From: a virus
Direction: 5' to 3' (one strand)
IMG/VR virus record: IMGVR_UViG_3300012314_000001
Length of the DNA stretch: 64,000 nt
Shown here piece by piece: positions 13,611-15,086 of this stretch. The notes below the pieces were generated by a model. That model did not search any database. It saw nothing but the letters and a program-made list of their open reading frames with translations, and was not told where the DNA came from. The position numbers and the translations under genes are program-made. The stretch's first letter is position 1; every line of letters starts with the position of its first letter.

Positions 13611-13826
13611 TTAGTCTTCTACGAGCTTGTAGCGTCTGCCGGTTAGGGTAAGGTTTTTCGGGCGTACTAGGACTAGGAACGTTTCTCCTTCCCTGTTGAA
13701 CATACACCTGATTTTTCCGTCATACGTTTCCTGAAGCAGAGTGACAAGCCCGTAGTCGGGGTGTTCGGCTTCGGCAAGGTAGTGCTCGTCAGCATTCCAA
13801 GGGGTGTCGGCCAGGGTGTTGGACAT
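13611..13826 (-). CDS. hypothetical small protein (about 71 aa)
   Basis: ORF. Start set at the internal ATG, which is preceded by ggag. Confidence 0.35.
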   Translation of the reverse strand: MSNTLADTPWNADEHYLAEAEHPDYGLVTLLQETYDGKIRCMFNREGETFLVLVRPKNLTLTGRRYKLVED

Positions 13827-13842
13827 AATGGGCTCCGTTCTC

Positions 13843-14307
13843 TTAAGCATACTTGGGTGTGGTGGTGGAGTCGATGTCCCAGGTTTCTGCGTGCGCATAT
13901 TCGGCAGTGAGCATAATCATGCGGTCAATAAGGTCAGCGATAAACCGCTTTGCTTCACTGGTTTCCCAATCGCTTGCCTCACACGACTGGTAGCTATAGC
14001 AGTGTGCAGCGGAGATGATCTCAAATGGAGTCCATTTGGTGTGCTTAGGCAAAGAATACTCGTAGGCAAATTCTTCGTTGTCGCTGTAGCGTTCGTTGAC
14101 GGATCGGAGGTTTGCTTCGCGGAGCATGTGTCCGAATTCTTCGGCGTTGTTGTCAGTGACTTCGCGGTAGTCTCCGCCTGGGGCGTAGTAGCGGACGCTG
14201 CTGCCAAGGGCGCGGTTGACGGGAGTGTTGAGGTTGAGTTTTTCTGGGTGGGCGGCGGCGAAGAGGAGGACGTTGATGTGTTCATTGTCGAGGGTGAAGC
14301 AGGACAT
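13843..14307 (-). CDS. hypothetical protein (154 aa)
   Basis: ORF, co-oriented with the small-paralog array and the restriction-modification gene. Confidence 0.45.
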   Translation of the reverse strand: MSCFTLDNEHINVLLFAAAHPEKLNLNTPVNRALGSSVRYYAPGGDYREVTDNNAEEFGHMLREANLRSVNERYSDNEEFAYEYSLPKHTKWTPFEIISAAHCYSYQSCEASDWETSEAKRFIADLIDRMIMLTAEYAHAETWDIDSTTTPKYA

Positions 14308-14433
14308 GGTGTGTGCTTTCTGTTGCCGGTTTATGCTTACAGGGTGTTAGTATACTTAAGCGGGGGCACAAAACGCAAACCACATAAGAAAAGCCCCAGC
14401 CAAAAGCCAGGGCATAAACTCTAAAGAACGCGC

Positions 14434-14637
14434 TTAAAGCTCCTCAAACTCACCATTATCATCATAACGGCCCAGAGCCTGCGCACGGTCAGAATCCTCA
14501 ATGTAGTCAACATCAACGTCAACATCAGTGTAGCCTACACCGGACATGTAGTTCTCTACTGCCTCCTCCAAGGTCTCACCATCAGCAGTGACCTCAACAG
14601 TGCCATCAATCGGCAAACGGAACATGTAACGAGTCAT
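14434..14637 (-). CDS. small protein (67 aa), member 1 of a tandem triplet
   Basis: MTRYMFRLPIDGTVEVTADGETLEEAVENYMSGVGYTDVD... Preceded by ggagaa RBS. Confidence 0.5.
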   Translation of the reverse strand: MTRYMFRLPIDGTVEVTADGETLEEAVENYMSGVGYTDVDVDVDYIEDSDRAQALGRYDDNGEFEEL

Positions 14638-14663
14638 TATTTTCTCCTTCGAATCAGGGTGGG

Positions 14664-14867
14664 TTAGAGTGCAACAAAGTTGCCGTTATCAGTGTAACCG
14701 ATGCCCACTACCTCATTGGCATCAATAGCATAGTCAAGGTACTCTTTGGCGACTCCCTCACCATTCATATAGTTTTCCACAGCATCATCAAGCGACTCAC
14801 CGTCAACGTGGACTTCAACAAGGCTATCAGTGCTGTCAATAGGGGCGCGGAAGATATAACGTGGCAC
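14664..14867 (-). CDS. small protein (67 aa), member 2 of a tandem triplet
   Basis: MPRYIFRAPIDSTDSLVEVHVDGESLDDAVENYMNGEGV..GIGYTDNGNFVAL. RBS aggag. Confidence 0.5.
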   Translation of the reverse strand: MPRYIFRAPIDSTDSLVEVHVDGESLDDAVENYMNGEGVAKEYLDYAIDANEVVGIGYTDNGNFVAL

Positions 14868-14909
14868 GGGGGCTTTCTCCTTTAAATCAGGGACGGATTA
14901 GTACGTACA

Positions 14910-15086
14910 TCAGTCATCAACACAGTCGATACCGACCACATCGCCAGTGCTGATAGTGTAGTCCGTGAATTCTTCGGCGTTCCCGACACCATTCATGTAA
15001 TTTTTCACAGCATCGTCAAGCGACTGGCCATCAACGTGGACTTCGACCATGCCTTCAATGGGGGCACGGAAAATATATCGGGACAT
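14910..15086 (-). CDS. small protein (58 aa), member 3 of the tandem triplet (below the 60-aa ORF-track cutoff)
   Basis: Manually translated: MSRYIFRAPIEGMVEVHVDGQSLDDAVKNYMNGVGNAEEFTDYTISTGDVVGIDCVDD. RBS aggagaaa upstream. Confidence 0.45.
   Translation of the reverse strand: MSRYIFRAPIEGMVEVHVDGQSLDDAVKNYMNGVGNAEEFTDYTISTGDVVGIDCVDD

What the first reader, a model, noticed from the sequence alone, without database searches (positions are those of the whole stretch)
13611..15086. Tandem triplet of about 60-aa paralogs plus two unknown genes in an operon-like array downstream of the RM gene
Three consecutive small genes (67, 67 and 58 aa) share the pattern M.RYIFR.PI...VEV..DG..L..AV.NYM.G.G. 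Each has its own RBS. The third falls below the ORF-track cutoff and was found by manual translation. They are co-oriented with and immediately downstream of the type IIL gene, followed by a 154-aa and a 71-aa unknown. Small paralog arrays next to RM systems may be anti-restriction proteins, specificity or regulatory factors, or toxin-immunity-like proteins. I do not recognise the family.
Basis: seen in the sequence. Interest (0 to 1): 0.6.

Follow-up and report, generated by a model that had tools for sequence, protein, structure and literature searches.

The report
Small acidic paralog array, phage-like element
Three real, selection-constrained genes for about 60-residue, very acidic proteins with no known relatives form a self-contained accessory block in a giant phage-like element of an actinobacterium; their position next to the methyltransferase-like gene comes from a local deletion, not a functional link.

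Summary
Five co-oriented minus-strand genes (58, 67, 67, 154 and 71 aa) lie at 13611-15086. The three small ones are true paralogs (BLASTP E 2e-25 and 7e-17), each has an AAGGAG ribosome-binding site, and all are under purifying selection (dN/dS 0.04-0.18).

The operon-with-RM reading does not hold.
- An 85-nt upstream region travels with the array whatever gene precedes it.
- A terminator-like hairpin separates the triplet from the 154/71 pair.
- In every other close relative a 248-aa gene sits between the 873-aa gene and the array.
- More distant relatives carry one copy, with no 873, 154 or 71 homolog within 10 kb.
- The 873-aa protein has an N6-adenine methyltransferase core but matches no MmeI model.

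The small family is tiny. It gave 25 hits among 5.8 billion proteins, and a no-index HMMER search of 1.84 billion representatives added one 67-aa member. It has no Pfam, PHROG, PADLOC or NCBIfam match and no significant fold match. Members carry net charge -9 to -15 and are predicted as beta-beta-alpha-beta-beta-beta.

The element (contigs up to 266 kb) looks like a jumbo actinophage. My best guess, at low confidence, is stoichiometric inhibitors of host proteins (anti-defence or host takeover). This is an ordinary kind of phage ORFan array.

The parts
15087..15171 (-). Conserved upstream region of the array. It holds a -10-like TGATAGTCT (15131..15123) and the SD AAGGAG (15100..15095). It is the putative own promoter and 5' UTR.
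   Evidence: The alignment with L006, L001 and L005 is conserved although the upstream gene differs. The conserved block shared with relatives starts at 15171. Promoter function is inferred, not shown; the consensus scan did not call it.
14910..15086 (-). Paralog 1: 58 aa, net charge -9. It is the fastest-evolving copy.
   Evidence: Orthologs are 71-81% identical, with dN/dS 0.11-0.18.
14664..14867 (-). Paralog 2: 67 aa, GTG start, net charge -11. It is missing in some relatives.
   Evidence: It is absent from L001-L004. dN/dS is 0.09.
14434..14637 (-). Paralog 3: 67 aa, net charge -15. It is the most conserved copy and the type that occurs alone in more distant elements.
   Evidence: It is 98.5% identical in L001 and L006, with dN/dS 0.04-0.05. 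It is 64-67% identical to the single copies in L008-L011 and L060.
14383..14413 (-). Terminator-like hairpin (GCCCTGGC-TTT-TGGCTGGGGC) followed by TTTTCTT, directly after paralog 3.
   Evidence: It is conserved in L006 and L001.
14349..14354 (-). -10-like TATACT, 42 nt upstream of the 154-aa gene, inside a spacer that is 94% conserved.
   Evidence: Promoter function is inferred only.
13843..14307 (-). The 154-aa gene. It belongs to a widespread family with no Pfam entry, found on mobile elements. The predicted structure is a confident helical fold.
13611..13826 (-). The 71-aa gene (78 aa if started at 13847). It is a stand-alone copy of a domain with the signature W[DN]xx[DK]HYLAEA...TG[KR][KR]YxL.
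   Evidence: Copies occur in L007, L060 (two) and L066 (three). It is 41% identical to a protein of a phage-like Corynebacterium ureicelerivorans plasmid.
13575..13602 (-). Hairpin followed by UUUUU after the 71-aa gene. It lies between the 71-aa gene and the convergent cutinase gene.
   Evidence: The z-score is only -1.5.
15173..17794 (-). Neighbour, not part of the block: 873-aa protein with a gamma-class N6-adenine methyltransferase core and an N-terminal D-X9-E-A-K motif.
   Evidence: DUF7149 is matched below threshold. The family profile hits HsdM 3ufb_A at E 0.0044 across GxFxTP, DxACG and NPPY. Plasmid homologs are annotated as hypothetical.

Best explanation
Shown. The three small genes are an old tandem expansion of a lineage-restricted gene for a small, very acidic, cytoplasmic protein of about 60 aa. 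The predicted fold is beta-beta-alpha followed by three short strands. The genes sit in a 1.6-kb accessory block (window 15171-13573) that is conserved as a unit among close relatives and flanked by variable insertions. The host genome is a very large phage-like element (contigs up to 266 kb) of an actinobacterium, probably a Corynebacterium-like mycolate producer.

Inferred. The triplet looks like its own transcription unit: a conserved upstream region, three strong ribosome-binding sites and a terminator-like hairpin.

Inferred, low confidence. The proteins act without enzymatic activity, as abundant stoichiometric binders that block a host protein. The target would most plausibly be a nucleic-acid-binding defence or transcription/replication protein, by charge mimicry or occlusion, as many small acidic phage early proteins do. 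The conserved N-terminal beta-beta-alpha half would be the scaffold. The C-terminal half differs between paralogs but is conserved within each ortholog group, and would give each paralog its own target or target variant.
For: - Real coding genes under purifying selection; paralogy is secure.
- Net charge is -9, -11 and -15 with pI about 4, and each gene has a strong SD. No signal peptide or hydrophobic stretch is visible in the sequences.
- The AF2 model is beta-beta-alpha-beta-beta-beta at pLDDT 74.
- The family is confined to this lineage of elements: 25 hits in 5.8e9 proteins. In 1.84e9 representatives searched with no word index there were 10 hits, including one new, more distant 67-aa member. 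There were none in GTDB genomes, IMG/VR or GenBank phages.
- Copy number varies between 1, 2 and 3 among relatives. The paralogs evolve at different rates, and the first copy in L001 looks like a 58/67a hybrid.
- The block has its own conserved upstream region and a terminator.
- The setting is phage-like. PolA is 40-42% identical to Gordonia, Corynebacterium and Nocardia phage polymerases, with 2060 phage records against 73 plasmid records. The element also carries RusA, YqaJ, WhiB, phage-type Dam, four tRNAs and a cutinase.
- The neighbourhood is full of accessory and conflict-type genes: the 873-aa MTase-like gene, the mobile-element family of the 154-aa gene, and, beside the single-copy homologs, pentapeptide-repeat and M78-like genes.
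Against: - There is no functional evidence of any kind.
- Profile tests against Gp2 and DpnD/PcfM fail.
- dN/dS is well below 1, so no arms-race signature is visible at this resolution.
- Acidity and small size are weak predictors.
- The model confidence is only moderate.
Confidence: 0.35

Rival explanations
1. The small proteins are accessory subunits, chaperones or regulators of the element's own machinery (replication, transcription, assembly). They bind proteins of the element rather than host proteins.
For: Strong purifying selection, above all on paralog 3 (dN/dS 0.04-0.05; 98.5% identity where neighbouring genes are 80-92% identical). The family persists as a single conserved copy across diverged elements.
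Against: Copy number varies and one paralog is dispensable. The genes lie in a variable accessory region, not in a replication or structural module. No partner gene is consistently adjacent.
Confidence: 0.25
2. The small proteins are immunity or antitoxin-like proteins that neutralise a toxic, for example nuclease, protein. The tandem copies would be orphan immunity genes.
For: Acidic small proteins in tandem arrays are typical of immunity genes (general knowledge). In this window the upstream 873-aa protein carries a PD-(D/E)xK-like D-X9-E-A-K motif (read from the translation).
Against: No toxin-like gene is consistently adjacent. Single-copy homologs lie next to unrelated genes. There are no LXG, WXG, Rhs or colicin-type domains nearby. 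873-aa homologs on plasmids lack such partners.
Confidence: 0.1
3. This is the first reader's reading: factors that work with or against the adjacent RM-like 873-aa enzyme (specificity, control or anti-restriction of that enzyme), co-transcribed with it.
For: The genes are co-oriented and 86 nt downstream in this window. They stay within 1.3-2.6 kb of the 873-aa gene in all close relatives.
Against: The array has its own conserved upstream region, independent of the upstream gene. Other genes intervene in all other relatives, including two on the opposite strand in L001. More distant homologs have no 873-like gene within 10 kb. Distant 873-aa homologs have no such small genes.
Confidence: 0.07

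Closest known systems
T7 Gp2 (Pfam PF16857, host RNA polymerase inhibitor; PDB 2wnm)
DpnD/PcfM family (Pfam PF14207), small proteins of conjugative plasmids, phages and the DpnII cassette, function unknown
   Same: Small acidic beta-beta-alpha-beta proteins of mobile elements. A PcfM-like phage protein appears as a weak BFVD hit (rank 8, probability 0.33).
   Different: None of 17 family members matches PF14207 at E <= 10, while the pCF10 PcfM control matches at 9e-21 in the same run.
DNA-mimic anti-restriction and anti-defence proteins (Ocr, ArdA, Arn, small Acr proteins)
   Same: Very acidic, small, encoded by a mobile element, in a variable accessory region.
MmeI-like type IIL / type IIG restriction-modification enzymes (for the neighbouring 873-aa gene)
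   Same: Length is about 870 aa. There is an N-terminal D-X9-E-x-K motif and a central gamma-class N6A methyltransferase with GxFxTP, DxACG and NPPY in order.
   Different: No MmeI domain model of Pfam matches, and only DUF7149 is matched, below threshold. There is no PDB sequence hit for the single sequence. PGAP calls the plasmid homologs hypothetical. Some homologs lack the N-terminal 100 residues.

Membership tests
T7 Gp2 / RNA_pol_inhib (PF16857) | Significant sequence or profile similarity to Gp2 homologs | tested here: not met
   hhalign gives probability 4.5% against T7 Gp2 and 6% against a 23-sequence Gp2 alignment. hmmsearch gives at most 9 bits. One Pfam hit (E 0.15) and one PHROG hit (1.9e-4) to RNAP-inhibitor models came from a single member of an 18-sequence set. 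That member is most likely the PcfM control, which scores best against my Gp2 HMM.
T7 Gp2 / RNA_pol_inhib (PF16857) | Same fold: beta-beta-alpha-beta with the C-terminal strand carrying the jaw-binding arginines | tested here: inconclusive
   [not shown]
T7 Gp2 / RNA_pol_inhib (PF16857) | Binds the beta' jaw of host RNA polymerase and inhibits transcription | not testable with these tools
   This needs biochemistry.
DpnD/PcfM (PF14207) | Match to the family HMM | tested here: not met
   0 of 17 members match at E <= 10. The positive control, pCF10 PcfM, matches at 9.2e-21.
DNA-mimic anti-restriction proteins (Ocr/ArdA type) | Structural similarity to a solved mimic, or surface carboxylates arranged like a DNA backbone | tested here: not met
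   [not shown]
Anti-phage defence system components (PADLOC) | Match to a PADLOC model | tested here: not met
   Only chance-level PglX fragments matched (E 0.003-0.07, about 23 residues).
MmeI-like type IIL RM enzyme (873-aa neighbour) | Gamma-class N6-adenine methyltransferase motifs X, I and IV in order | tested here: met
   The family profile aligns to HsdM 3ufb_A at E 0.0044 across GdFwTP, wDcaaG and nPPYg. G313, F315, T317, P318, D345, G349 and N436-Y439 are invariant.
MmeI-like type IIL RM enzyme (873-aa neighbour) | Match to the MmeI-specific domain models (N-terminal nuclease, helical, MTase, TRD, C-terminal) | tested here: not met
   The Pfam scan at E <= 1 returns only DUF7149 (E 4.9e-4, below the gathering score) and a spurious Gp6 hit. 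NCBIfam returns nothing.
MmeI-like type IIL RM enzyme (873-aa neighbour) | PD-(D/E)xK nuclease motif and cleavage at a fixed distance from the site | tested here: inconclusive
   D74-X9-E84-A-K86 is present in the sequence, and 'ExK' is conserved in the homologs that have the N-terminus. Activity cannot be tested here.

The most novel reading that the evidence does not exclude
The family is a new class of small acidic inhibitors from jumbo actinophage-like elements. Each paralog blocks a different host defence or housekeeping nucleic-acid enzyme of Corynebacterium-like hosts, using a fold unrelated to known DNA mimics, anti-CRISPRs or Gp2. The array is the record of target diversification.
Probability: 0.25. 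Interest if true: 0.55.

Novelty: new member of a known kind. Interest (0 to 1): 0.28.

Why it matters
If the small proteins are inhibitors, they would give three natural variants of a new minimal scaffold for blocking actinobacterial proteins. They would also give a first functional foothold in an uncultivated group of phage-like elements over 200 kb long, in which almost no gene has an annotation.

As it stands the finding is a typical ORFan paralog array in a mobile-element accessory region. Its main value is negative: it is not an RM-associated operon.

The neighbouring 154-aa family may be the better target. It is widespread on conjugative plasmids and integrative elements, has no Pfam entry, and gives a confident novel-looking fold.

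Tried and rejected
- Nucleotide similarity of 12500-20000 to GenBank phages and PLSDB plasmids: none. Searches failed on query length.
- Pfam, PHROGs, NCBIfam and PADLOC for all five proteins: nothing significant.
- PDB sequence and profile searches for the small family and the 154-aa family: nothing.
- tblastn of paralog 2 against phages: none.
- GTDB species genomes and IMG/VR for the small family: none. The cutinase as a host probe in GTDB: none.
- The DpnD/PcfM and T7 Gp2 leads were tested with controls and rejected as membership claims.
- Small ORFs downstream of distant 873-aa homologs on pMP118 are basic membrane peptides, unrelated to the family.
- Rfam on 13000-18000: no RNA family.
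- Literature searches for the element and for DpnD/PcfM gave nothing usable.
- Positive selection was looked for and not found at whole-gene level.

Full report
**1. Observation**

The ORF list and the sequence show five co-oriented minus-strand genes exactly spanning 13611-15086:
- 15086..14910: 58 aa.
- 14867..14664: 67 aa, GTG start.
- 14637..14434: 67 aa.
- 14307..13843: 154 aa.
- 13826..13611: 71 aa. An in-frame ATG at 13847 would give 78 aa and overlap the end of the 154-aa gene by 8 nt.

The three small proteins align over their whole length. Pairwise BLASTP gives E 2e-25 and 7e-17.

Each small gene has AAGGAG 8-9 nt upstream of its start. Spacers are 86, 42, 26, 126 and 16 nt.

Codon-level comparison with orthologs on related contigs gives the following dN/dS values:

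| Gene | dN/dS |
|---|---|
| 58 aa | 0.11-0.18 |
| 67a | 0.09 |
| 67b | 0.04-0.05 |
| 154 aa and 71 aa | about 0.1 |

All five are therefore real protein-coding genes under purifying selection. Synonymous divergence between the paralogs is saturated (dS 1.6 or more), so the duplications are old. No further copy exists in the window, and no Rfam family lies in the region.

**2. The genome it sits in**

The window has no nucleotide match in GenBank phages or PLSDB. Contigs carrying identical or near-identical genes reach 157, 216 and 266 kb. Almost none of their genes has a Pfam hit.

The recognisable genes fall into two groups.

Phage-type genes:
- A family-A DNA polymerase, 40-42% identical to those of Gordonia, Corynebacterium and Nocardia phages. 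It matches 2060 phage records against 73 plasmid records.
- RusA, RNase T, a YqaJ-type exonuclease, WhiB, a phage-type Dam and an EcoRI-type methylase. Locus L058 is 100% identical to window 50116-64000.
- Four tRNA genes.

Other recognisable genes:
- An FtsK-like ATPase.
- An LCP-family protein.
- A cutinase.
- TnpB.
- NlpC/P60 and SLT domains.

The 71-aa protein's only match in the phage and plasmid collections is in a 48-kb 'plasmid' of Corynebacterium ureicelerivorans. That record is evidently a phage: it carries SSB, KilAC, WhiB, thyX, nrdF and dut.

I conclude that the element is a jumbo phage-like extrachromosomal element of an actinobacterium, probably a Corynebacterium-like mycolate producer. 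Phage versus plasmid is not settled, because no capsid or terminase gene was seen in the parts I read. The element is absent from IMG/VR and from GTDB species genomes as far as the small family is concerned.

**3. The small family**

A profile search of 5.8 billion proteins found 25 members, all 31-67 aa and all from metagenomes. A HMMER search without a word index over 1.84 billion representatives returned 10 hits. It added one more distant 67-aa member (P0148, E 2e-8). The rest were already-seen types, fragments, or acidic low-complexity stretches of long proteins.

No Pfam, PHROG, NCBIfam or PADLOC model matches. The proteins carry net charge -9, -11 and -15, with pI about 4.

Two leads were tested with controls.
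- **DpnD/PcfM (PF14207).** None of 17 members matches at E <= 10, while PcfM of pCF10 matches at 9e-21 in the same run.
- **T7 Gp2.** I confirmed my recalled sequence against 2wnm and built a 23-sequence Gp2 profile from IMG/VR loci. hhalign probability is 4.5-6% and HMM scores are at most 9 bits. The local match does fall in the same beta2-alpha register (VEVHVDGESLDDAVE / FEVPIYAETLDEALE). The single-member hits to RNA-polymerase-inhibitor models are most likely due to the PcfM control, which scores best with my Gp2 profile.

The family therefore resembles this class of small acidic beta-beta-alpha phage and plasmid proteins in shape. It cannot be filed in either family.

**4. Gene neighbourhood**

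Close relatives (80-99% protein identity) share a 1.6-kb block equivalent to window 15171-13573. It holds the upstream region, the paralogs, the 154-aa gene, the 71-aa gene and a terminator. Both flanks vary:
- Every other close relative whose contig spans the junction has a 248-aa gene between the 873-aa gene and the array.
- L001 and L002 have two additional opposite-strand genes there.
- The cutinase gene downstream is present only in the window and the identical contig L005.

The inside of the block varies too:
- L001-L004 have two paralogs. 67a is missing, and the first copy looks like a 58/67a hybrid with dS 1.5 against the window's copy.
- L062 and L064 have three paralogs, but the 154-aa gene is reduced to its first few codons, unrelated sequence and its last 20 codons. 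The 71-aa gene is intact.

The 85 nt upstream of the first paralog are conserved regardless of the upstream gene. They contain TGATAGTCT, which fits the actinobacterial TANNNT -10 with an extended TG. That fit to the consensus rests on my own knowledge.

After paralog 3 there is a 9-bp GC-rich hairpin followed by TTTTCTT. The 126-nt spacer containing it is 94% conserved and also holds TATACT.

More distant elements carry a single copy, always of the 67b type (64-67% identity, 42% in L059):
- L008-L011: downstream of Band_7, pentapeptide-repeat and M78-like genes.
- L060, L061 and L066: near proteins with the 71-like domain.
- L059: on an 8.5-kb contig with FtsK-like and TnpB genes.

None of them has an 873-, 154- or RM-like gene on the contig sequence available, up to 10 kb each side. 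L007 shows the reverse case. It carries two 154-like genes and a 71-like domain but no small gene.

Distant 873-aa homologs (about 30% identity) occur on Ligilactobacillus, Lactobacillus, Virgibacillus, Acinetobacter and Fluviibacter plasmids. They have no related small genes next to them.

The linkage to the 873-aa gene is thus shallow synteny within one clade. The direct adjacency in this window results from a deletion.

**5. The 873-aa neighbour**

No MmeI-specific Pfam model matches. Only DUF7149 is matched, at E 4.9e-4 and below threshold. A five-sequence family profile does align to the type I methyltransferase HsdM (3ufb) at E 0.0044, across motifs X (GxFxTP), I (DxACG) and IV (NPPY), which are invariant in the family. 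The sequence also has D74-X9-E84-A-K86.

An MmeI-like or type IIG architecture is therefore plausible. It is not established.

**6. The other two genes**

The 154-aa protein belongs to a large family: 310 hits. It has no Pfam or PHROG entry.

Where it occurs:
- tblastn finds it in 76 plasmid records, mainly Pseudomonas and Mycobacterium and mostly conjugative or mobilizable.
- Only one phage record carries it.
- In Actinomyces oris chromosomes it sits beside an integrase and ParA.
- On pMA100 its neighbours are toprim, DUF4192 and DUF932 genes.

The 71-aa protein is a free-standing copy of a domain that recurs in this group of elements as the C-terminus of longer proteins.

**7. Mechanism**

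Shown: the genes are real, the proteins are acidic and small, the family is lineage-restricted, copy number is variable, and the block is self-contained and sits in a phage-like element.

Inferred: the triplet is an independent, strongly translated transcription unit.

Speculative (confidence about 0.35): the proteins are stoichiometric inhibitors of host nucleic-acid-handling proteins (anti-defence or host takeover). The conserved N-terminal half would be the scaffold and the paralog-specific C-terminal halves would be the target-recognition parts.

Rivals:
- Accessory subunits of the element's own machinery (0.25).
- Immunity or antitoxin proteins (0.1).
- Factors tied to the 873-aa enzyme (0.07).

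The remaining probability is 'something else'.

**8. Verdict**

The RM-operon interpretation is not supported. The family is new, but it is of a very common kind: a small acidic ORFan array in the accessory region of a large phage-like element. Interest is modest.

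Noticed in passing
[not shown]
   Followed up: partly
window 15173-17794 (-); L017, L018, L019: The 873-aa protein defines a family with full-length homologs (about 30% identity) on Lactobacillaceae megaplasmids and on small plasmids of Lactobacillus, Acinetobacter and Fluviibacter. PGAP annotates all of them as hypothetical. The family has an invariant GxFxTP / DxACG / NPPY methyltransferase core. Most members also have an N-terminal D...ExK motif, but the Acinetobacter and Fluviibacter members lack the first 100 or so residues.
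   Followed up: partly
window 13611-13826 (-); L007 8133-8510; L060 5774-6109 and 8918-9358; L066; L069 7884-8414: The 71-aa protein is a stand-alone copy of a recurrent domain with the signature W[DN]xx[DK]HYLAEA ... TG[KR][KR]YxL. Related elements, and a Corynebacterium ureicelerivorans phage-like 'plasmid', carry it as the C-terminus of proteins with unrelated N-termini.
   Followed up: partly
window 4291-9606 (+): Three tandem paralogous genes (564, 568 and 592 aa; 47-57% identical). The one read in full (7828-9606) has a signal peptide, long TETPE-type repeats and a C-terminal LASTG sorting signal with a membrane anchor. Cell-wall-anchored surface proteins are unusual cargo for a phage-like element.
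   Followed up: no
whole window; L057 (266-kb contig), L058: The window belongs to a family of extrachromosomal elements over 200 kb long, known only from metagenomes and with almost no annotated genes. Recognisable genes include an actinophage-type PolA, RusA, YqaJ, WhiB, Dam and EcoRI-type orphan methylases, an FtsK-like ATPase, LCP, NlpC/P60, Fic, SocA-like, several Band_7 genes, TnpB copies and four tRNAs. The elements are absent from IMG/VR and GTDB by the probes used. Phage versus plasmid is not settled.
   Followed up: partly
window 12630-13559 (+): A cutinase-family gene with a signal peptide is present only in this window and L005. In all other relatives the flanks (13573 and 12500) are directly joined, so it is a recent insertion next to the block.
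   Followed up: partly
window 23216-23624 (+) and 26658-28023 (-): There are further tandem paralog pairs: two genes of about 62 aa (37% identity) and two of 218 and 233 aa (26% identity). Tandem duplication is a general habit of this element.
   Followed up: no
L006 13161-14642; window 39012-40139 (-); L009-L011; L059: IS605-type TnpB genes are inserted at different places in different relatives, often close to the small-gene locus. They may drive the local rearrangements.
   Followed up: no
L020 38698-38889 (pCF10 PcfM) versus T7 Gp2: The DpnD/PcfM protein of pCF10 scores better against a T7 Gp2 profile than the window's family does (15.7 bits, aligned over beta1-beta2-alpha). It is probably the member that hit the PHROG 'RNA polymerase inhibitor' model at 1.9e-4. 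This hints at a DpnD/PcfM-Gp2 relationship that may be worth a proper test.
   Followed up: partly
H62, NZ_LR134455.1 (Tsukamurella tyrosinosolvens, 263,814-bp 'plasmid'): This is the best plasmid match of the element's PolA (33% identity, 92% coverage). The record has a size similar to the metagenomic contigs and comes from a mycolate-producing actinobacterium. It may be a cultivated relative of this kind of element.
   Followed up: no
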